This document shows positions 1,310 to 35,151 of a stretch of 64,000 nt of DNA, in pieces. The position numbers and the translations under genes are program-made. Location: assembly GCA_050187355.1 (NCBI GenBank), contig JBFWXO010000006.1:43658-107657 (forward strand), read 5' to 3'. Within the stretch, counting starts at the first letter, position 1. Each line of letters opens with the position of its first letter. Source of the stretch: Vicinamibacterales bacterium. Lineage in GTDB: Bacteria > Acidobacteriota > Vicinamibacteria > Vicinamibacterales > UBA2999. Under the pieces are notes generated by a model, which ran no database searches, was not told the DNA's origin, and worked only from the letters and a program-made list of their open reading frames with translations.

Positions 1310-6808
<5,499 letters not shown>

Positions 6809-27878: not shown

Positions 27879-27948
27879 GATGGCGGCGGCCGGGCACCGC
27901 CGCGTCCGCCCGCGCCGCGCGACCATCCGATCTCACGAGGCCCGTCCC

Positions 27949-29532
27949 ATGCGCCGGTTCCTGCCGCTCCTGCTCCTCCTCACGGCCCTGGGCCTGCCCC
28001 TCGGCGCCCAGTCGCCCGGGCTCGACCCGGCCACCATCGCGCGGGTGCGCGAGGAGGCGAGCACGCGCTCGAAGGTCTACGAGCACGTGTGGTGGCTGTC
28101 CGAGGCGCTCGGCCCGCGCGTGACCGGCACCCCCGCGTTCGCGAAGGCGAGCGAGTGGGTCATGCAGCAGTTCCAGGCCTGGGGCCTCGCCAACGTGCAC
28201 CAGGAGCGCTGGCCGTTCGGGCAGGGCTGGACCATCGAGCACTTCAGCGCGACGATGATTGCGCCGCAGCCGTCCGTCCTCATCGGGCTGCCGCGCGCGT
28301 ACTCGCCCTCGACGCCGGGCGTCGTGACGAGCGACGTCGTCCACGTGCGCGTCGAGCGCGAGGCGGACCTCGCCGCCTACCGGGGAAAGCTGCGCGGAAA
28401 GATCGTCGTGATGCAGCCCGTGCGCGCCGTGCGCATGCTGGAAGGGCCGATCATCCTGCGCATGGACGACGGGCCCTGGTGGACCGAGGCGGCGACGCCG
28501 GTCGAGGCCACCGAGACGGCGCCGGCGGCCGGACGGGCCGAGGCGATCCGCGAGCGCCAGCGCCTGGCGGCCGCGATCCAGCGCTTCCTCGTGGAGGAAG
28601 GCGTGAGCGTGCTGCTCGAACGCGGCGGCGACCAGGACACGGCCGCCGGCGGCAGCGACCTCACCTGGGAACAGCAGCGGCCCGACGGCGGCACGATCTT
28701 CCCGACCGGCGGCGGCTCGCGCGATCCCGGCGCGCCGGCGCAGGTGCCGTCCGCGACGCTCGCGGTCGAGCACTACAACCGCATCGTCCGGCTGCTCGAG
28801 CACGACATGCCGGTACGGCTGCAGATCGAGATCCGGACGGCCTTCCATCCCGAGGGCGCCGACGGCAACGGGATCAACACGGTGGGGGAGATTCCGGGCA
28901 CCGACCTGGCGCAGGAAGTCGTGATCCTCGGCGCGCACATGGACAGCGTGCCCTACGCCATCGGCGCCACGGACAACGCGACGGGCACGGCCGCGATGAT
29001 GGAGGCCGTGCGCGCGATCCAGGCGCTGAAGCTCCGGCCGCGGCGCACGATCCGGGTCGTGCTGTGGGGCGGTGAGGAACAGGGGCTGCTCGGGTCGCGC
29101 GCCTACGTCGCCCGGCACTTCTGGAACGCGGCGGCGAAGCGGCCGACGGCCGAGCACGCCAACGTCGCCGCGTATTTCAACCTCGACAACGGCACGGGGC
29201 GGATCCGCGGCATCTGGGGCCAGGGCAACAAGGGCGCGCTGCCCATCTTCGAGCGCTGGGGAGAGCCGCTGAAGGATCTCGGCTGGAAGATGGCGAGCCC
29301 GCGGAGCGTCGGCGCCACCGACCATGCGTCGTTCGACCAGGTCGGGCTGCCGGGCTTCCAGTTCATCCAGGAGCGGCTCGAGTACAACTCGCGGTCGCAC
29401 CACTCGAACATGGACACGTTCGACCGCGTGCAGCGCGCCGACGCCGAGCAGCAGGGCGTGGTGGCCGCGGTGTTCGCGTGGCAGGCCGCCAACTGGCCCG
29501 ACAAGCTCCCGCGAAAGCCCCTGCAGCCCTAG
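27949..29532 (+). CDS. Secreted M28-family zinc peptidase
   Basis: Signal peptide; GAHMDS, GATDNATG, GEEQGLLGS, NLDNG, TDHASF, HHSNMDT. Confidence 0.9.
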   Translation: MRRFLPLLLLLTALGLPLGAQSPGLDPATIARVREEASTRSKVYEHVWWLSEALGPRVTGTPAFAKASEWVMQQFQAWGLANVHQERWPFGQGWTIEHFSATMIAPQPSVLIGLPRAYSPSTPGVVTSDVVHVRVEREADLAAYRGKLRGKIVVMQPVRAVRMLEGPIILRMDDGPWWTEAATPVEATETAPAAGRAEAIRERQRLAAAIQRFLVEEGVSVLLERGGDQDTAAGGSDLTWEQQRPDGGTIFPTGGGSRDPGAPAQVPSATLAVEHYNRIVRLLEHDMPVRLQIEIRTAFHPEGADGNGINTVGEIPGTDLAQEVVILGAHMDSVPYAIGATDNATGTAAMMEAVRAIQALKLRPRRTIRVVLWGGEEQGLLGSRAYVARHFWNAAAKRPTAEHANVAAYFNLDNGTGRIRGIWGQGNKGALPIFERWGEPLKDLGWKMASPRSVGATDHASFDQVGLPGFQFIQERLEYNSRSHHSNMDTFDRVQRADAEQQGVVAAVFAWQAANWPDKLPRKPLQP

Positions 29533-29566: not shown

Positions 29567-30418
29567 TCACGGCGTGCGGGGCTGGCGGAACGCCGCGACG
29601 ACGTAGGCGTACGCCCGCGCCGGCCGCCCGTGCACGAGGGGCGGGCGGAAGCCCAGCGTCTTGACGGCGTCCAGCGTCGGCTGATCGAACCCGGGGGCCG
29701 ACCGCACGATCTTCATCGCGTCGATCGCCCCGGTTGCCGACAGCGACAGCTCGGCCATCGTCACGCCGTCGAACATCGCGTTGGGCGGATAGAGCGGCAT
29801 CACGGCCTGGCCGGTCGGGGCCGGCGCGGCGTCGGACGACCTGGCGACCGTCTCCGGCGGCTGCCCCAGCGTGCCGGTGTAGAGCGACGGGGGGCGGAAC
29901 AGGCCCATTACGAGCACCGTCGACGCCGTGGGCCGGCGGGTCGTGAGATCGACCGGCGCGCCGGCCGGGGGCACCGCGACGTCCTGGGCCGGCTCGAAGG
30001 TCCAGCCGCGCACGGCCATCATCAACGCCGCGGTGAAGGGGGGCGTCTGCCGGATCGCGGTCACGCCGCTCACCCGGCCTTCGGGTGTCACGTTCACTTC
30101 CAGGAGCACCTCGCCGCCGGCGACGGCCTGGGGTGGAATCATCGGCAGGCCGCCGTCGACGAACCTCGCCGGGGCGAGCGCCTGCCGCGGCCGCTCTGAC
30201 GCCTCGCCGGCCGCCGCGGCGGGAGGCGCCGGGGCGGACCCGGTCATCGGCCGCCACGTCTCCTTGACGTCTTCGTTGGTCAACACCCGGGCAGGCGCCG
30301 CGATGGCGCGGCGCCGGGCCGCTTCCCGAGCCGCGACGTCGCCGAGCGACTGGGCGGGCGCGGTGGTGGCGGTCAGCGCGGCGACCACGGCGATGGCGGA
30401 GACGGCGCGCGGGGACAT
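29567..30418 (-). CDS. TonB C-terminal-like domain protein (two apparent copies)
   Basis: GEVLLEVNVTPEGRV...AVRGWTFEPA and MAELSLSATGAI...VRSAPGFDQ..LDAVK...FRP; N-terminal signal-like segment. Confidence 0.65.
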   Translation of the reverse strand: MSPRAVSAIAVVAALTATTAPAQSLGDVAAREAARRRAIAAPARVLTNEDVKETWRPMTGSAPAPPAAAAGEASERPRQALAPARFVDGGLPMIPPQAVAGGEVLLEVNVTPEGRVSGVTAIRQTPPFTAALMMAVRGWTFEPAQDVAVPPAGAPVDLTTRRPTASTVLVMGLFRPPSLYTGTLGQPPETVARSSDAAPAPTGQAVMPLYPPNAMFDGVTMAELSLSATGAIDAMKIVRSAPGFDQPTLDAVKTLGFRPPLVHGRPARAYAYVVAAFRQPRTP

Positions 30419-30526
30419 GGACCCTCCACGACTACACTACCGCACCCCACGCGCTCCGGCGGGGCCCGCCGCGATCTTGCGCAGTCAGCGCGCGCGAAGG
30501 CGGTCAACCCCGTATATCCTGGGACC

Positions 30527-30883
30527 ATGGCAGGCGCCCTCCGGGGCCCCGGGTTCCGCGCGGCGGTGGTCCAGCTGGTGCTGGTGTCGCTCCTGGCGGT
30601 GAATGCCTCGGCGGCATTCCACGACCGGTCCGACGATCCGACGTGCGACGGAATCCTCGGGGGCGGCGGCTACGGGCTCGCGATCGTTCCTGCCGACGGC
30701 CCCGTCCATAAGGCCGAGCACTGCGTCGTCTGCCACGCGCTGCAGTCCGCGCGGGCGTCGCAGGACATCGCCCGCCACGCGCCGCCCGTCGCCCACGTTC
30801 GCGTCGCGCCGCCGATGGCGGTCAGCGTCCGCGATCGACTCGTCACACTCGCCTCGCAAGTACGCGCACCTCCCGCCGCCTGA
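30527..30883 (+). CDS. DUF2946/CruR-like leader protein with CxxC and C-terminal RAPP motif
   Basis: N-terminal hydrophobic helix, HKAEHCVVCH, ends QVRAPPAA*; directly upstream of a metal-uptake operon. Confidence 0.75.
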   Translation: MAGALRGPGFRAAVVQLVLVSLLAVNASAAFHDRSDDPTCDGILGGGGYGLAIVPADGPVHKAEHCVVCHALQSARASQDIARHAPPVAHVRVAPPMAVSVRDRLVTLASQVRAPPAA

Positions 30884-30938
30884 CCGTCGCAGGTGAACGG
30901 GGATGCGGGCCGCCTGGCCCGCAAGGGAGGGTGTGGTC

Positions 30939-32180
30939 ATGTACGCACGTCGAGTGGCCTGTGCGGCCGTCGTTGCCGCGTTGTCGTGGACGCCGGCCCC
31001 TGCCTGGGCGCAGGAGGCCGATAGGGTTCAGGCGCTGCAGCGGCAGATCGAGGATCTCCAGAAGGACTTCGCCGACAAGCTGGCCGCCCTGCAGGCGGAG
31101 GTGGCCGCGCTGAAGGCCTCGCAGGCCGCCGCCGAGGCGGCCGCGGCCGCGGTGCCCGTGGCCCCGCCGGCGGGCGCCGGCCTCACGACCGGCAAGGTCT
31201 TCAACCCGGACGTGGCCGTGATCGGCAGCTTCCTCGGCGCCGCCGGCCGCAATCCCGTCGATCCCGCGCCCGCGCTCGAGATGGCCGAATCCGAGGTCTC
31301 CCTGCAGGCGGTCATCGATCCGTACGCGCGCGGCGACTTCTTCCTGTCGTTCGGGCACCAGGGCGTCGACCTCGAGGAGGGCTTCATCACCTTCACCGAG
31401 CTGCCGGGGAAGCTGCTGGTCAAGGCCGGCAAGATGCGCACGGCGTTCGGCAAGGTGGACGGCATGCACTCGCACGCGCTGCCCTGGGTCGACCGGCCGC
31501 TCGTCACGACGAACCTGCTGGGCGGCGAGGAAGGGCTGTCGGATGCCGGTGTCTCGATGGCACGCCTCATCCCGGCCGGGACGCTCTTCCTGGAAGCGAC
31601 CGGTCAGGTCTTCCGCGGCGAGGCCGGCGACGGCGTGTTCCAGACGGCCGAGCGCAGCGACCTGAGCTACCTCGGACACCTCCGCGCGTACCACGACCTC
31701 AGCGAGTCGACCAACATCGACCTCGGGGCCTCGGTCAGCCGCGGGCACAACGGGGCCGGCCTGGTGGACGGCAGCGATCTCGGCCGGTTCACGACCCGCC
31801 TCTACGGCACCGACGTCACGCTGCGCTGGCGGCCGCTGCAGCGGGCCATCTACCGCCAGTTCATCGGGCGCAGCGAGGTCGTGTGGAGCCGGCGCGAGCA
31901 GTTCGGCGGGGCGCAGCACGCCATGGGCTTCTACGTTTCCGGCGACTATCAGCTCGCGCGGCGATGGTTCGCGGGCGCGCGCTTCGACCGCTCGGGGCGG
32001 GCCGACGCGGGCGACGTGGTGGACCGCGGCGGGTCGGTGCTGCTCACCTACCGGCCGAGCGAGTTCTCGCAGGTGCGCGGCCAGTACCGCCGCATCCATT
32101 TCGGCGATGCCGGGAACGGCAACGAGCTGCTGTTCCAGGCCCAGTTCTCGATCGGGGCGCACGGCGCCCATGCGTTCTGA
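30939..32180 (+). CDS. Outer-membrane beta-barrel/porin-like protein of the metal-uptake operon
   Basis: SD GGGAGG; signal peptide AWA-Q; coiled coil; FNPDVAVIG, GMHSHALPW; amphipathic strands; C-terminal QFSIGAHGAHAF. Confidence 0.75.
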   Translation: MYARRVACAAVVAALSWTPAPAWAQEADRVQALQRQIEDLQKDFADKLAALQAEVAALKASQAAAEAAAAAVPVAPPAGAGLTTGKVFNPDVAVIGSFLGAAGRNPVDPAPALEMAESEVSLQAVIDPYARGDFFLSFGHQGVDLEEGFITFTELPGKLLVKAGKMRTAFGKVDGMHSHALPWVDRPLVTTNLLGGEEGLSDAGVSMARLIPAGTLFLEATGQVFRGEAGDGVFQTAERSDLSYLGHLRAYHDLSESTNIDLGASVSRGHNGAGLVDGSDLGRFTTRLYGTDVTLRWRPLQRAIYRQFIGRSEVVWSRREQFGGAQHAMGFYVSGDYQLARRWFAGARFDRSGRADAGDVVDRGGSVLLTYRPSEFSQVRGQYRRIHFGDAGNGNELLFQAQFSIGAHGAHAF

Positions 32181-32188
32181 GGTGTGAC

Positions 32189-33118
32189 ATGACGATGCGA
32201 TTGACGGGACTTCTGGCGGCGATGCTCCTGGCCGCCCCGCCCCTGGCGGGCGCGCAGGGCAAGCTGAACGTCGTCACCACCACCGAGGACCTGGCCTCGC
32301 TCGTCTCCGCGATCGGCGGGGACAAGGTGACGGTCACGGGCCTGGCCAAGGGCTACCAGGATCCCCACTTCGTGGATCCCAAGCCGAGCTTCATCCTGGC
32401 GATGAGCCGGGCCGACCTGCTCGTCGTCGTCGGCCGTGAGCTCGAGATCGGCTGGCTGCCGCCGCTCCTGAACAGCAGCCGCAACTCGAAGGTGCAGCCG
32501 GGGGCGAACGGCTACCTGGATGCGTCGCTGACGGTGCGGATCCTCGACATCCCGGCCGGCCAGATCACGCGGGCCATGGGCGACTACCACCCGCTGGCCA
32601 ACCCCCACTACGGGTTGGCGCCCGGCACCGGCCGCCGGTTGGCCGCGGCCATCCGCGACCGCCTCTCGGCGCTGCGCGGCGCCGATACGGCCTACTTCGC
32701 CGAGCGCTACAAGGACTTCGACGGCCGGCTCGCCGAGGCCGAGAAGCGCTGGGACGCCACGCTGGCGCCGTACAAGGGCACCAAGATCGTGACCTACCAC
32801 CGCTCCTGGCCGAACTTCATGGAGCGCTTCGGCCTCGACGTCATGGGCTACGTCGAGCCGAAGCCGGGCATCCCGCCCAGCCCGTCGCACACGCTCGAGC
32901 TCGTCGAGGACATGAAGGCGCAGGGCGTCAAGCTGATCGTCGTCGAGCCGTACTTCGACCCGAAGACCCCGCAGGCGATCGCCAACCAGGTGGGCGGGAA
33001 GGTGATCACGCTCGCGCCCTCGGTGGGCGGGGTGAAGGCGGCCAGCGACTACGTGCAGCTGTTCGAGTACGACGTCAGCACGCTGGCGGCCGCGCTGAAG
33101 CAGGTCACGGGCAAGTAG
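32189..33118 (+). CDS. Metal ABC transporter substrate-binding protein (ZnuA/TroA cluster A-I)
   Basis: QDPHFVDPKPS, ADLLVVVGRELEIGWL, HPLANPHY, YHRSWPNF, EPKPGIPPSPSH. Confidence 0.9.
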   Translation: MTMRLTGLLAAMLLAAPPLAGAQGKLNVVTTTEDLASLVSAIGGDKVTVTGLAKGYQDPHFVDPKPSFILAMSRADLLVVVGRELEIGWLPPLLNSSRNSKVQPGANGYLDASLTVRILDIPAGQITRAMGDYHPLANPHYGLAPGTGRRLAAAIRDRLSALRGADTAYFAERYKDFDGRLAEAEKRWDATLAPYKGTKIVTYHRSWPNFMERFGLDVMGYVEPKPGIPPSPSHTLELVEDMKAQGVKLIVVEPYFDPKTPQAIANQVGGKVITLAPSVGGVKAASDYVQLFEYDVSTLAAALKQVTGK

Positions 33119-33122
33119 CGCC

Positions 33123-33950
33123 ATGGACCTCTCGATCCTCCAGTTCCTGGCGCCCGCCATCGCGGCGAGCCTCATCATCGCGGGCATCCACGCCTATCTC
33201 GGGCTGCACGTCGTCGAGCGCGGGGTCATCTTCGTGGACCTCTCGCTGGCGCAGATCGCGTCGCTCGGCGCGGCCATCGCCGTCTTCCAGGGGTACGACG
33301 CGCACGATCCCGCCGTCTACTGGATGAGCCTGGCCTTCACCCTGATCGGCGCCTTCATCTTCGCGATGGTCAAGGGCCACGAGGCCCGGATCCCGCAGGA
33401 GGCCATCATCGGCATCTCCTATGCCGTGGCCTCGGCGGCCGTGATCCTCACGCTCAGCAAGTCCACGGGCGAAGCCGAGCACCTGCAGAGCATGCTGGTG
33501 GGGAACATCCTGTCGGTGCAGTGGCCCGAGGTGTGGCTGACGGCCGCCATCTACGCCGCCATCGGGGTGCTGCACTACGCGTTCCGCCGGAAGTTCCTCG
33601 CCATCTCGATGGACGCGGTGGGCGAAGCGGCGCGCGGCGTGCCCGTGCGCGCGTGGGACTTCCTCTTCTACGCGTCCTTCGGCCTCGTGGTGACCCGCTC
33701 GGTCGCGATCGCCGGCGTGCTCCTGGTGTTCTGCTATCTCATCGTGCCGTCGGTGGGCGGCATGCTCTTCTCGGAGCGGGTCGGCGTCCGGCTGGCGATC
33801 GGCTGGGCGATGGGCGTGCTGGTGTCGATGCTGGGGATGTACTTCTCGGTCCAGTTCGACTTCCCCACGGGGGCGGCCATCGTCTGCACCTTCGGCCTCG
33901 TCCTGGCCCTGATGGCGCTCGTGCGTTCGCTGGCGCGCGGGCGCACCTGA
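33123..33950 (+). CDS. Metal ABC transporter permease (ZnuB/MntB-like, ABC-3)
   Basis: YLGLHVVERGVIFVDLSLAQ, QEAIIG, SVAIAGVLLVFCYLIVP; multiple TM helices. Confidence 0.88.
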   Translation: MDLSILQFLAPAIAASLIIAGIHAYLGLHVVERGVIFVDLSLAQIASLGAAIAVFQGYDAHDPAVYWMSLAFTLIGAFIFAMVKGHEARIPQEAIIGISYAVASAAVILTLSKSTGEAEHLQSMLVGNILSVQWPEVWLTAAIYAAIGVLHYAFRRKFLAISMDAVGEAARGVPVRAWDFLFYASFGLVVTRSVAIAGVLLVFCYLIVPSVGGMLFSERVGVRLAIGWAMGVLVSMLGMYFSVQFDFPTGAAIVCTFGLVLALMALVRSLARGRT

Positions 33951-34011: not shown

Positions 34012-35151
34012 ATGCCGTCACGCCGCGAGTTCCTGCAGACCGCTGCCGTCGCCGGCAGCGCCCTGGCCGCCGGGTCGAAAGCCGCGGCGGCGACCGCGCG
34101 CCAGCCCGGAGCGGCGGCGCCGCGCCGACTGAAGCTCCTGATCCTGGGCGGGACCGGCTTCATCGGCCCCTGGCAGGTCCGCTACGCCGTGCAGCGCGGC
34201 CACGAGGTGACGATCTTCAACCGCGGACGCAGCGCGCCCGGGATGTTCGAGGGCGTGGAGGAACTGACGGGCGACCGCGCGGCCAACCAGCTGGACGCGC
34301 TGAAGGGCCGGCGGTGGGACGCCGTCATCGACAACTCGGCCTCGCGGGCCGACGCGCCGGACTGGGTGCGCCAGTCGGCGGGCCTGCTGAAGGACGCCGC
34401 CGACCAGTATCTCTTCATCTCGACGCGGTCGGTGTTCGCGGACCTCAGCGCGGTCCCGGGCACGGTGGGCGCGCCGCTCCTCACGCTCGAGAACACGCCG
34501 AACTGGACGCGCGGGCAGCCCTATCCGTACGGCCTCGCCAAGGCCCTGGCCGAAGCCGAGGCCACGTCGGCCTTCGGCCCGCGCACCACGATCGTGCGGC
34601 CGGGCCTCATCGTGGGCCCGGGCGACGACACGGACCGCTTCACCTACTGGCCGGTCCGCATCGAGCGCGGCGGCGAGATCCTGGCGCCCGGGGACCCGGA
34701 GGGCGACCGCGTCCAGATCATCGACGTGCGCGACCTCTGCGAATGGGCCGTGCGCCTCTGCGAGCAGCGCACCTACGGCACGTTCATGGCCATCGGGCCA
34801 GAGCACGGGCGCTCGATGGCCGAGTTCCTGTACGGCATCGCCGGCGTCACGACGGCGCCGCTCACGTGGACGTGGGTGCCGCGGGAGTTCCTGGAGCGGC
34901 ACAAGATCCGGCCGTACGTGGAGATGCCGGTCTGGCGGCCGCCCACGCCGGGCTGGGAGGGCTTCGCGCGCTTCGACCTGACGCGCGAGATCCAGGCGGG
35001 CCTCACGTTCCGCGCCCTGGCCGATACCGCGTCGGCCACGCTCGCCTTCCATCACGGGCGTCCCACGGATCGCCAAAAACTGAGGGCGGGCGCCACGGCC
35101 GATCAGGAAGCGGCCGTCCTCACGGCGTGGCACGCGCGGGGACGCGCGTGA
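34012..35151 (+). CDS. Tat-exported NAD-dependent epimerase/dehydratase (atypical SDR)
   Basis: SRREFL twin-arginine signal; ILGGTGFIG; YGLAKALAE; IVRPGLIVGP. Confidence 0.87.
   Translation: MPSRREFLQTAAVAGSALAAGSKAAAATARQPGAAAPRRLKLLILGGTGFIGPWQVRYAVQRGHEVTIFNRGRSAPGMFEGVEELTGDRAANQLDALKGRRWDAVIDNSASRADAPDWVRQSAGLLKDAADQYLFISTRSVFADLSAVPGTVGAPLLTLENTPNWTRGQPYPYGLAKALAEAEATSAFGPRTTIVRPGLIVGPGDDTDRFTYWPVRIERGGEILAPGDPEGDRVQIIDVRDLCEWAVRLCEQRTYGTFMAIGPEHGRSMAEFLYGIAGVTTAPLTWTWVPREFLERHKIRPYVEMPVWRPPTPGWEGFARFDLTREIQAGLTFRALADTASATLAFHHGRPTDRQKLRAGATADQEAAVLTAWHARGRA

What the first reader, a model, noticed from the sequence alone, without database searches (positions are those of the whole stretch)
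30527..30941. Metal-sensing ribosome-arrest leader (CxxC + RAPP) whose RAPP codons can sequester the downstream SD
Seen: a 118-aa peptide with a TM/signal helix, HKAEHCVVCH and terminal RAPP. The RAPP codons GCACCTCCC (30866-30874) are complementary to GGGAGGGTGT (30925-30934), which contains the porin SD, and they enclose an inner hairpin gcgggcc/ggcccgc (30905-30922). Established: Bordetella CruR (DUF2946; CxxC, RAPP) controls a downstream TonB-dependent transporter post-transcriptionally in response to copper, and RAPP-like motifs stall ribosomes. Inference: stalling under metal starvation opens the SD. Here the target is a porin plus Zn/Mn-type SBP and permease, which would extend this mechanism to a different transporter class and possibly a different metal.
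Basis: partly seen in the sequence, partly recalled or inferred. Interest (0 to 1): 0.8.

Follow-up and report, generated by a model that had tools for sequence, protein, structure and literature searches.

The report
Zinc-operon leader peptide with ribosome-arrest tail
A 118-codon gene in front of a porin and zinc-type importer operon is a distant relative of the copper-sensing, ribosome-stalling leader peptides CruR and CutF, so this kind of control probably also governs zinc uptake; the proposed RNA switch is physically plausible but not proven.

Summary
ORF 30527-30883 encodes a 118-aa peptide with an export signal, HCVVCH, a 43-residue spacer, RAPP, two more residues and a stop.

It is not a chance ORF. 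About 45 related leaders from Acidobacteriota and Gemmatimonadota keep only CxxC, R[AGS]PP and a 42-45-residue spacing. The window peptide misses Pfam's DUF2946 cut-off, but relatives reach it, so it is a divergent CruR/CutF-type leader.

These leaders head two operon types:
- a 16-strand porin, a ZnuA-type binding protein with three His ligands, and an ABC-3 permease, as here;
- a ZnuD-like TonB-dependent receptor.

This context points to zinc rather than copper.

On the RNA side, the porin Shine-Dalgarno sequence (SD) is predicted more than 90% paired. It has two competing partners in the last 14 leader codons, one of them the RAPP codons. A ribosome stalled at RAPP would lower the cost of opening the SD by about 5 kcal/mol. 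However, shuffled sequences mask the SD equally well, and the closest orthologue does not keep the effect.

Two features are robust. A hairpin abutting the SD shows compensatory changes. CCU is enriched at the first Pro codon, which creates CCUCC.

Verdict: a new variant of a known kind. Arrest, the metal sensed and the switch all remain untested.

The parts
30527..30883 (+). Leader ORF (uORF), 118 aa, a divergent DUF2946/CruR/CutF-like candidate arrest peptide
   Evidence: ORF listed. Homologues found; alignment A1. PF11162 scores 11.4 bits (E = 0.57), aligned to the profile's C-terminal end.
30527..30613 (+). Export signal: residues 1-29 with R6/R11, hydrophobic core AAVVQLVLVSLLAV, and A27-S28-A29
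   Evidence: Read from the sequence. No signal-peptide predictor was available. All family members have a comparable N-terminal hydrophobic segment.
30620..30622 (+). His32 codon in the LHD..DD..C motif; a possible additional metal ligand
   Evidence: Nearly invariant (at least 90%) in alignment A1.
30719..30736 (+). HCVVCH (residues 65-70), the putative metal-binding CxxC motif
   Evidence: C66 and C69 are invariant and H65 is at least 90% conserved across 30 aligned leaders.
30843..30854 (+). Competing anti-SD tract UCACACUCGCCU (codons V-T-L-A), 15-26 nt upstream of the stalled P site
   Evidence: It is the dominant ensemble partner of the SD (probability 0.6-0.8 per base) and the MFE partner.
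30863..30874 (+). RAPP codons CGC GCA CCU CCC: the predicted stall site (P115 in the P site, P116 in the A site) and the second anti-SD tract (CCUCCC)
   Evidence: R113, P115 and P116 are invariant. The stall register is taken from PMC12992588. The duplex with the SD scores -20.6 kcal/mol and is the MFE. CCU is enriched at this position in the family.
30881..30883 (+). Leader stop codon TGA, two codons after RAPP
   Evidence: Tails of 1-11 residues across the family.
30905..30922 (+). Conserved hairpin GCGGGCC-GCCU-GGCCCGC, 2 nt upstream of the SD
   Evidence: RNAalifold consensus on 9 related loci. 95.8% of cells are paired and 5 of 8 pairs have compensatory changes; 0 of 500 shuffles reach the paired fraction or the covariation score, 2 of 500 the count of compensatory pairs.
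30925..30934 (+). Shine-Dalgarno region GGGAGGGUGU of the porin gene
   Evidence: Lies 5-14 nt upstream of ATG 30939. Predicted paired with probability above 0.9 in the free RNA.
30939..32180 (+). Outer-membrane porin-like protein, 413 aa, with an N-terminal coiled coil and a roughly 16-strand barrel ending in F
   Evidence: No Pfam family. More than 7500 homologues, all unnamed. AlphaFold model with pLDDT 69.7. Foldseek hits to OmpT, OprP, OmpF and DcaP at E 1e-11 to 1e-8.
32195..33118 (+). ZnuA-family periplasmic metal-binding protein, 307 aa
   Evidence: PF01297 at 3.5e-49. Closest solved structures are Synechocystis and E. coli ZnuA. The three His ligands (DPH, NPH, YHRSW) are conserved and there is no His-rich loop.
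33123..33950 (+). ABC-3 (ZnuB-type) permease, 275 aa
   Evidence: PF00950 at 4e-34. It is the only ABC-3 gene in the 99.4%-complete genome.

Best explanation
The ORF 30527-30883 is a cis-acting regulatory leader of the CruR/CutF (DUF2946) kind, not a structural protein.

Proposed mechanism:
1. The ribosome translating the leader arrests at R113-A114-P115-P116, with Pro115 in the P site and Pro116 in the A site.
2. At that moment the CxxC motif lies 46-49 residues behind the peptidyl-transferase centre, so it has just left the exit tunnel.
3. When the metal is scarce (most likely zinc), the arrest persists. The stalled ribosome covers or abuts the last ~14 leader codons. Both C-rich tracts that otherwise pair with the porin SD (30843-54 and the RAPP codons 30863-74) lie there.
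4. The SD is therefore freed, and the porin is translated. The downstream ZnuA-type binding protein and ZnuB-type permease would benefit from a stabilised, translated mRNA.
5. When the metal binds the nascent Cys/His site, the arrest is released, the leader terminates, the SD is re-masked and the operon is shut down. Secondary Rho polarity may add to this.
6. The covarying hairpin next to the SD is a constitutive part of this leader RNA; its exact role is unknown.

Shown here: the motifs, their conservation and spacing, the operon contexts, the hairpin covariation and the CCU codon bias.

Inferred: arrest, the identity of the metal, the direction of the response, and the SD switch.
For: Family:
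- 30 aligned leaders share only C66, C69, R113, P115 and P116 (plus H32 and H65 at 90% or more), with a mean column identity of 28%.
- The CxxC-to-RxPP spacer is 42-45 residues in all ~45 loci. The CruR value is 45 plus or minus 2 (PMC9426467).
- 19 of 30 leaders touch PF11162 at E <= 1, the best at 3.7e-6.
- One member (L053) passes Pfam's cut-off at 26.6 bits.
- RAPP arrests ribosomes in several sequence contexts, and CruR arrests in vitro (PMC12992588).

Context:
- At least 23 loci have leader + porin + ZnuA + ABC-3.
- About 20 loci have leader + TonB-dependent receptor. The four receptors that matched any NCBIfam model match ZnuD best (4rdr at 2e-42; NCBIfam ZnuD at 1e-61 to 1e-69, against the copper receptor model at 1e-17 to 1e-22); a fifth (L059) matched none.
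- ZnuA keeps its three His ligands.

RNA:
- The SD is paired with probability above 0.9.
- The cost of opening the SD is 12.5 kcal/mol in the free RNA and 7.1 kcal/mol in the stalled state.
- In 16 of 23 porin-type loci the predicted SD partner lies within 30 nt upstream to 15 nt downstream of the stalled P site.
- CCU occupies the first Pro codon in 17 of 40 independent loci against about 9-10% background, p about 1e-7, creating CCUCC.
- The hairpin shows covariation.
- The intergenic region is short (55 nt) and G-rich (C/G 0.58), with no terminator or Rfam match. This favours translational control over Rho-dependent control.
- CutF supplies an experimental precedent for an SD-shielding stem-loop opened by a stalled DUF2946 leader (PMC9973294 and bioRxiv 10.1101/2025.02.05.636593).
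Against: - No experimental or expression data exist: only DNA metagenomes hold this sequence.
- The window peptide itself fails Pfam's DUF2946 threshold (11.4 against 23.7 bits).
- SD masking is no stronger than with shuffled leader 3' ends. The fraction of shuffles reaching the observed value is 0.33 for the window and about 0.4 at the median over 20 loci.
- Cognate against non-cognate stall-region:SD duplexes give p = 0.12.
- The closest orthologue shows no predicted stall effect.
- Pairing of the SD with 30843-54 lies just outside a strict ribosome footprint, and even in the stalled state the SD is partly paired with the start of the porin ORF (7.1 kcal/mol).
- The C-rich composition imposed by Arg/Ala/Pro codons would give anti-SD potential without any selection.
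- CCU enrichment could instead reflect tRNA-Pro isoacceptor effects on arrest.
- Zinc is inferred only from the neighbouring genes. The characterised family members sense copper, and a CxxC motif is a classic Cu(I) site.
Confidence: 0.6

Rival explanations
1. CruR-type transcriptional attenuation. The stalled ribosome at RAPP does not act on the SD. Instead it blocks Rho from loading on the leader mRNA. When the metal releases the arrest, Rho terminates transcription before or inside the porin gene.
For: This is the mechanism demonstrated for the family prototype CruR (PMC9426467). The leader's 3' end (30780-30897) is C-rich and G-poor (C/G 1.5-1.6), so it could serve as a rut site once ribosomes have left it. 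Many receptor-type relatives have 90-190-nt intergenic regions.
Against: The intergenic region here is only 55 nt (162 nt in B. pertussis), G-rich (C/G 0.58) and largely folded into a conserved hairpin. The only C-rich stretch lies inside the translated leader. Rho polarity would in any case follow from an untranslated porin gene, so it may be a consequence rather than the primary switch.
Confidence: 0.2
2. The leader senses copper, as CruR and CutF do (or another metal such as Mn, Ni or Co), and the porin/ZnuA-like/ABC-3 system imports that metal rather than zinc.
For: Both characterised DUF2946 leaders respond to copper through Cys motifs. CutF-like proteins with other contexts have been proposed to sense Ni/Co. 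Cluster A-I binding proteins with His3Asp sites can bind Mn or Zn.
Against: ZnuA keeps the three-His zinc-type ligand set. The four receptor partners that matched any NCBIfam model match ZnuD 40-50 orders of magnitude in E-value better than the copper receptor model. None of the PepSY_TM, PCuAC, Sco, CopC or multicopper oxidase partners typical of copper operons appear. Zn metallopeptidases (M28, M61) recur in the receptor-type operons.
Confidence: 0.15
3. The ORF encodes a functional exported small metal-binding protein (a periplasmic chaperone or accessory factor of the importer), and the C-terminal RAPP is incidental.
For: It has an export signal and Cys/His residues. It is co-oriented with uptake genes.
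Against: Conservation is confined to five residues plus a fixed spacer length, and everything else drifts freely (28% mean column identity). This is the signature of a nascent-chain sensor rather than a folded protein. RAPP, RGPP or RSPP lies 1-11 residues from the stop in every member. RAPP is about 2.3-fold rarer than its permutations in this genome's open frames (crude count) and is reported to be counter-selected in proteomes (PMC12992588).
Confidence: 0.05

Closest known systems
CruR (Bp2923) of Bordetella pertussis, prototype of Pfam DUF2946/PF11162 (Roy et al. 2022, PMC9426467)
   Same: Small first gene of a metal-uptake operon. It has an N-terminal export signal, an invariant CxxC, RAPP 2-3 residues from the C-terminus, and a fixed spacing between the motifs (45 there, 43 here). 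The expected logic is also the same: uptake genes are on when the metal is scarce. Relatives of the window peptide head TonB-dependent receptor genes, as cruR does.
   Different: The window peptide falls below Pfam's threshold. The target is a porin + ZnuA + ABC-3 permease rather than CrtA + PepSY_TM. The context points to zinc, not copper. The intergenic region is 55 nt and G-rich rather than 162 nt, so Rho-dependent termination in the intergenic region is unlikely to be the primary mechanism. The lineage is Acidobacteriota, not reported for the family in that paper's main text.
CutF of Rhodobacter capsulatus (cutFOG; Ozturk et al. 2023, PMC9973294; bioRxiv 10.1101/2025.02.05.636593)
   Same: A DUF2946-family leader with a Sec signal, a Cys motif about 45 residues upstream of a Pro-rich arrest tail, and an mRNA structure that shields the SD of the next gene and is opened by the stalled ribosome.
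   Different: CutF uses CxxxC and controls a detoxifying multicopper oxidase, so metal induces stalling. Here an uptake system requires the opposite logic. In CutF the anti-SD lies in an intergenic stem-loop. Here the candidate anti-SD tracts lie inside the leader's last codons, and the conserved intergenic hairpin does not contain the SD.
RAPP-class arrest peptides ApdA, ApdP and ApcA, and SecM (Sakiyama 2021; Fujiwara 2024 and 2025, PMC12992588)
   Same: A C-terminal R-A-P-P core in a small exported or membrane protein encoded upstream of the regulated gene. The stall has the third and fourth motif codons in the P and A sites. The downstream gene is induced by SD exposure.
   Different: Those peptides monitor Sec/YidC activity and precede secretion genes. 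Here a Cys/His motif at a fixed distance and a metal-uptake context indicate metal sensing.

Membership tests
DUF2946 / CruR family (Pfam PF11162) | Match to the PF11162 profile above the gathering threshold (23.7 bits) | tested here: not met
   The window peptide scores 11.4 bits, E = 0.57, aligned at residues 46-116 to profile positions 44-117. Indirect link: 19 of 30 aligned relatives hit at E <= 1, the best at 3.7e-6. Relative L053 (G221) scores 26.6 bits, over the cut-off, and is also found by the family profile A1 at 2.1e-12.
DUF2946 / CruR family (Pfam PF11162) | Conserved CXXC motif | tested here: met
   C66-V-V-C69. Both Cys are invariant in 30 aligned leaders.
DUF2946 / CruR family (Pfam PF11162) | RAPP motif about three residues from the C-terminus | tested here: met
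   RAPP at 113-116, followed by AA and the stop. R, P and P are invariant; position 2 is A, G or S in relatives.
DUF2946 / CruR family (Pfam PF11162) | Spacing of about 45 (plus or minus 1-2) residues between CXXC and RAPP | tested here: met
   43 intervening residues here; 42-45 in about 45 related loci, although the regex allowed a wider range.
DUF2946 / CruR family (Pfam PF11162) | N-terminal export signal (present in more than 95% of members) | tested here: met
   Read from the sequence: R6/R11, a 14-residue hydrophobic core, and ASA at 27-29. No dedicated predictor was available.
DUF2946 / CruR family (Pfam PF11162) | First gene of an operon of metal-homeostasis genes | tested here: met
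   Followed on the same strand by the porin, ZnuA and the ABC-3 permease, with gaps of 55, 14 and 4 nt. The gene upstream is divergent.
DUF2946 / CruR family (Pfam PF11162) | Long intergenic region and Rho-dependent termination downstream of the leader | tested here: not met
   The intergenic region is 55 nt, with C/G 0.58, and is mostly a hairpin. Rho dependence itself cannot be tested in silico.
DUF2946 / CruR family (Pfam PF11162) | Ribosome arrest at RAPP and a copper-dependent response | not testable with these tools
   No RNA or ribosome-profiling data are available. The gene context suggests zinc.
CutF-type SD-shielding leaders | mRNA structure that masks the SD of the next gene and is opened by the stalled ribosome | tested here: inconclusive
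   The SD is predicted more than 90% paired, and the opening cost falls from 12.5 to 7.1 kcal/mol on stalling. Shuffled controls do as well (0.33). The cognate/non-cognate test gives p = 0.12. The orthologue L021 shows no effect.
CutF-type SD-shielding leaders | CxxxC motif and a downstream multicopper oxidase | tested here: not met
   The motif is CxxC, and the downstream genes are a porin, ZnuA and ABC-3.
Sec/YidC-monitoring RAPP arrest peptides (ApdA, ApdP, SecM) | Encoded upstream of sec or yidC genes | tested here: not met
   The downstream genes are metal-uptake genes.

The most novel reading that the evidence does not exclude
This would be a natural zinc-responsive arrest peptide in which the arrest codons are dual-coded. 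The Pro-Pro codons are selected as CCU-CCN so that the stall site itself (CCUCC, identical to the 16S anti-SD core) is the mask of the downstream ribosome-binding site. One ribosome would then both read the metal signal and physically uncover the next gene's SD. Zn-dependent folding of a His/Cys site 43 residues upstream would release the arrest.
Probability: 0.3. Interest if true: 0.75.

Novelty: new variant of a known kind. Interest (0 to 1): 0.55.

Why it matters
Nascent-chain metal sensing by DUF2946 leaders has been shown only for copper, in CruR and CutF. A conserved branch of the family sits in front of the sole ZnuB-type importer of the genome, and in front of ZnuD-like receptors in relatives. 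That would make zinc uptake, classically attributed to Zur repression, subject to translational arrest control in Acidobacteriota and Gemmatimonadota, two major soil phyla.

The family also offers a compact and testable architecture: CxxC, a 43-residue ruler, RAPP, and an anti-SD/hairpin/SD arrangement. This can be used to ask two open questions in the arrest-peptide field. How does metal binding outside the tunnel release an arrest? Are the arrest codons themselves used as RNA regulatory elements?

Tried and rejected
- **Pfam and NCBIfam on the peptide.** No hit at E <= 0.1. Only a sub-threshold DUF2946 alignment at E = 0.57.
- **Word-indexed protein search.** Found a single 86% homologue. 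The exhaustive HMMER search found only 14. Whole-genome and locus searches were needed to reveal the family.
- **Rfam, terminator and sigma-70 scans of 30250-31100.** Nothing relevant. The hairpin has no U-tract, so an intrinsic attenuator is rejected.
- **Significance of the local fold.** z = -1.47, not significant.
- **Shuffle control for SD masking.** Not significant in most loci.
- **Cognate against non-cognate anti-SD:SD duplex test.** p = 0.12.
- **RNAalifold.** Recovers the hairpin but no alignable outer helix.
- **Rho rut-like composition in the intergenic region.** Absent.
- **RNA-seq or metatranscriptome support.** Only DNA runs hold the sequence.
- **Downstream TAT-signal epimerase (34012-35151) as part of the operon.** Rejected, because it is not conserved in a related locus.
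- **Search for an ABC ATPase in porin-type operons.** None found in the window or in L054 and L061.
- **Genome-wide scan for other R[AGS]PP-ending small ORFs in this genome.** 70 open frames, but only this one has the full pattern. The rest look like non-coding high-GC frames.
Full report
**Observation.**
- The ORF 30527-30883 encodes MAGALRGPGFRAAVVQLVLVSLLAVNASAAFHDRSDDPTCDG...VHKAEHCVVCHALQ...LASQVRAPPAA.
- It has a signal-like N-terminus (R6, R11, a hydrophobic core, ASA at 27-29).
- The CxxC motif is at C66/C69. Forty-three residues follow, then R113-A114-P115-P116, then two Ala and TGA.
- The RAPP codons are CGC GCA CCT CCC (30863-30874).
- The porin gene has GGGAGGGTGT at 30925-30934 and ATG at 30939.
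- The hairpin GCGGGCC/GGCCCGC occupies 30905-30922.

**Is it a real, conserved element?**
Yes.
- The word-indexed search found one 86%-identical homologue, named Vicinamibacterales bacterium.
- An exhaustive HMMER search of 1.8 billion representatives found 14 proteins of 115-131 aa with the same layout.
- Six-frame searches of related genomes found further copies, as did loci fetched through the downstream porin and through the protein hits. The total is about 45 leaders, from Acidobacteriota (Vicinamibacterales, Bryobacterales, Solibacteraceae and others) and Gemmatimonadota.
- In a 30-sequence alignment only C66, C69, R113, P115 and P116 are invariant. H32 and H65 are at least 90% conserved, and mean column identity is 28%.
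- The spacer between CxxC and R[AGS]PP is 42-45 residues in every locus, although the search pattern allowed 36-52.
- The tail after the motif is 1-11 residues.
- The genome holds only this one copy.

**Family membership.**
- The window peptide does not reach Pfam's DUF2946 threshold. It scores 11.4 against 23.7 bits, E = 0.57, but the alignment runs to the C-terminal end of the profile.
- Nineteen of the 30 aligned relatives touch PF11162 at E <= 1, the best at 3.7e-6.
- One relative (G221, locus L053) is found both by the profile built from this family (2.1e-12) and by PF11162 above its cut-off (26.6 bits).
- I therefore treat the peptide as a divergent member of the CruR/CutF superfamily by transitive homology. 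The direct test was not met.

**What the leaders control.**
Two operon types follow these leaders.
- *Type A, as in the window.*
  - A 400-470-aa outer-membrane protein, then a ZnuA-family binding protein, then an ABC-3 permease.
  - The outer-membrane protein has no Pfam family and more than 7500 unnamed homologues.
  - Its model (pLDDT 69.7) has an N-terminal coiled coil and about 16 strands. It matches OmpT, OprP, OmpF and the coiled-coil porin DcaP at E 1e-11 to 1e-8. "Porin" is therefore reasonable at the fold level.
  - Nine or ten of the 15 porin loci fetched independently of the leader carry a CxxC...RxPP leader, including two from Gemmatimonadota.
- *Type B.*
  - A TonB-dependent receptor (Plug + barrel).
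  - For the four receptors that matched any NCBIfam model, the best match is the zinc receptor ZnuD. PDB 4rdr scores 2e-42 (tested for L027) against 9e-17 for the next hit. The NCBIfam ZnuD model scores 1e-61 to 1e-69, well below its strict cut-off, against 1e-17 to 1e-22 for the copper receptor model. A fifth receptor (L059) matched no NCBIfam model.
  - Several receptors carry long His/Asp-rich loops.
  - Genes behind them include M28 or M61 Zn-peptidases and an ABC-3 permease, but no PepSY_TM, PCuAC, Sco or CopC.

**The window's binding protein and permease.**
- The ZnuA-like protein aligns best to Synechocystis and E. coli ZnuA. It keeps the three His ligands (DPH, NPH, YHRSW) and lacks a His-rich loop.
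- The permease is the only ABC-3 gene in a 99.4%-complete genome.
- Together this points to zinc rather than copper, although this rests on context only.
- The CruR and CutF papers and the RAPP survey do not mention ZnuA, ABC-3, porin or zinc contexts in their main texts. Library searches found no paper describing them.

**The RNA switch in the window.**
- In the free RNA the SD is predicted paired with probability above 0.9.
- Two mutually exclusive partners compete for it. UCACACUCGCCU (30843-54) has probability about 0.7-0.8. The RAPP codons CGCGCACCUCCC (30863-74) have probability about 0.15.
- The RAPP pairing is the minimum-free-energy structure when 30809-30953 is folded (-63.4 kcal/mol), and scores -20.6 kcal/mol as an isolated duplex.
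- Both partners lie in or directly behind the footprint of a ribosome arrested with CCU115 in the P site. That register was shown for ApdA, ApdP and CruR (PMC12992588).
- Folding only the RNA downstream of such a ribosome lowers the cost of opening the SD and start codon from 12.5 to 7.1 kcal/mol.

**The RNA switch across loci.**
- Across 23 porin-type loci the predicted SD partner lies within the stall footprint in 12, and just upstream of it in 4.
- The controls are sobering.
  - The local fold is not unusual (z = -1.47).
  - Dinucleotide-shuffled leader 3' ends mask the SD as well as the native ones: 33% of shuffles do so for the window, and the median over 20 loci is about 0.4.
  - Each SD pairs with other loci's stall regions almost as well as with its own (p = 0.12).
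  - The 86%-identical orthologue shows no predicted effect.
- SD masking is thus physically expected, because Arg/Ala/Pro codons are C-rich and the SD is G-rich. I could not show that it is selected.

**Two RNA-level features that are statistically solid.**
- *The hairpin directly upstream of the SD.*
  - It is conserved in structure but not in sequence across nine related loci: GCGGGCC/GGCCCGC, GCGGACC/GGUUCGC, GCGAACG/CGUUCGC, GCGAGCC/GGCUCGC and others.
  - 95.8% of cells are paired. Five of eight pairs have compensatory changes. No shuffle out of 500 reaches the paired fraction or the covariation score (2 of 500 reach the count of compensatory pairs), and slid controls fall to 25-47% paired.
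  - It has no U-tract, so it is not a terminator.
  - Its role is unknown. It may shorten the effective loop between the anti-SD tracts and the SD.
- *The first Pro codon of the arrest motif.*
  - It is CCU in 17 of 40 non-redundant loci. CCU makes up 8.7% of Pro codons in the downstream genes and 10% elsewhere in the leaders. The binomial p is about 1e-7 at a 10% background and 1e-3 even at 20%.
  - In the first 20 loci, where full codon counts were made, CCC is nearly absent at this position (1 of 20) and is enriched at the second Pro (12 of 20 against 31%).
- The result is CCUCC, the anti-SD core, at the stall site.
  - It could equally reflect a tRNA-Pro isoacceptor preference for arrest, or avoidance of the shift-prone CCC-C.

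**Mechanism and rivals.**
- The best-supported reading is a metal-sensing arrest leader. It has CruR-like logic (arrest persists when the metal is scarce, so uptake genes are on) and a CutF/SecM-like output (the stalled ribosome exposes the SD of the next gene).
- Primary Rho-dependent attenuation, as in CruR, is less likely here. The intergenic region is 55 nt, G-rich (C/G 0.58) and structured. The only C-rich tract lies inside the leader. Secondary polarity cannot be excluded.
- Copper or another metal remains possible.
- A trans-acting small periplasmic protein is unlikely, given the conservation pattern.
- No RNA data exist for this organism: only landfill, sediment and wastewater DNA metagenomes hold the sequence.

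**Earlier notes of this scan.**
These were read after I had fixed my own interpretation. They report the same leader-plus-zinc-operon pattern in other genomes. They agree with this report but are not independent evidence.

**Verdict.**
- It is a new variant of a known kind: a DUF2946-type arrest leader attached to zinc-type uptake genes in Acidobacteriota.
- The SD-masking step is plausible but unproven.

Noticed in passing
window 30939-33950; L054, L061, L051: None of the porin + ZnuA + ABC-3 operons examined contains an ABC ATPase gene. The window's permease is the only ABC-3 gene in a 99.4%-complete genome, so the ATPase partner must be encoded elsewhere.
   Followed up: partly
window 27880-29532 (+); L034, L052, L053 downstream of the receptor: PA-domain M28 Zn-aminopeptidases recur next to these leaders. 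One lies 1 kb upstream in the window, and others sit directly behind the ZnuD-like receptor in three relatives. An M61 peptidase takes this place in L060. This may be a functional link between zinc uptake and secreted Zn peptidases.
   Followed up: partly
window 29567-30418 (-): A TonB C-terminal domain protein (two TonB_C stretches) is transcribed divergently from the leader, although the window's operon has a porin rather than a TonB-dependent receptor.
   Followed up: no
L031 (G039:C135), reverse strand, leaders at 522-902 and 1079-1456 of the oriented locus: Two tandem paralogous leaders (RAPP and RGPP, both with HCAICHW and a 44-residue spacer) precede one long open frame of up to 1092 aa (unscanned; its real start probably lies about 220 codons in).
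   Followed up: no
L036 about 2813-3354: In one Vicinamibacterales MAG the leader is split between two frames: HCMSCS... in one and ...GRSPPASNDLFL in another. This is either an assembly indel or a genuine frameshift between the CxxC and RSPP motifs.
   Followed up: no
L024 and L026 receptor genes: The ZnuD-like receptors carry very long His/Asp-rich loops (for example HHHHDDDHDDDHDDDDHDDDHDEH), suggestive of direct metal capture.
   Followed up: no
L055 3242-4750: An ABC-3 permease is fused to C-terminal HEAT repeats, directly behind a leader-controlled receptor.
   Followed up: no
L024 and L033 intergenic regions: Pairs of near-perfect GC-rich palindromes with GCUGAAGC- or GCUUCAGC-type loops lie between the leader and the receptor gene. 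They resemble REP-like repeats.
   Followed up: no
window 34012-35151 (+): An NAD-dependent epimerase/dehydratase-family protein with a twin-arginine signal follows the permease. A periplasmic Rossmann-fold protein is unusual. It is not conserved in a related operon.
   Followed up: partly
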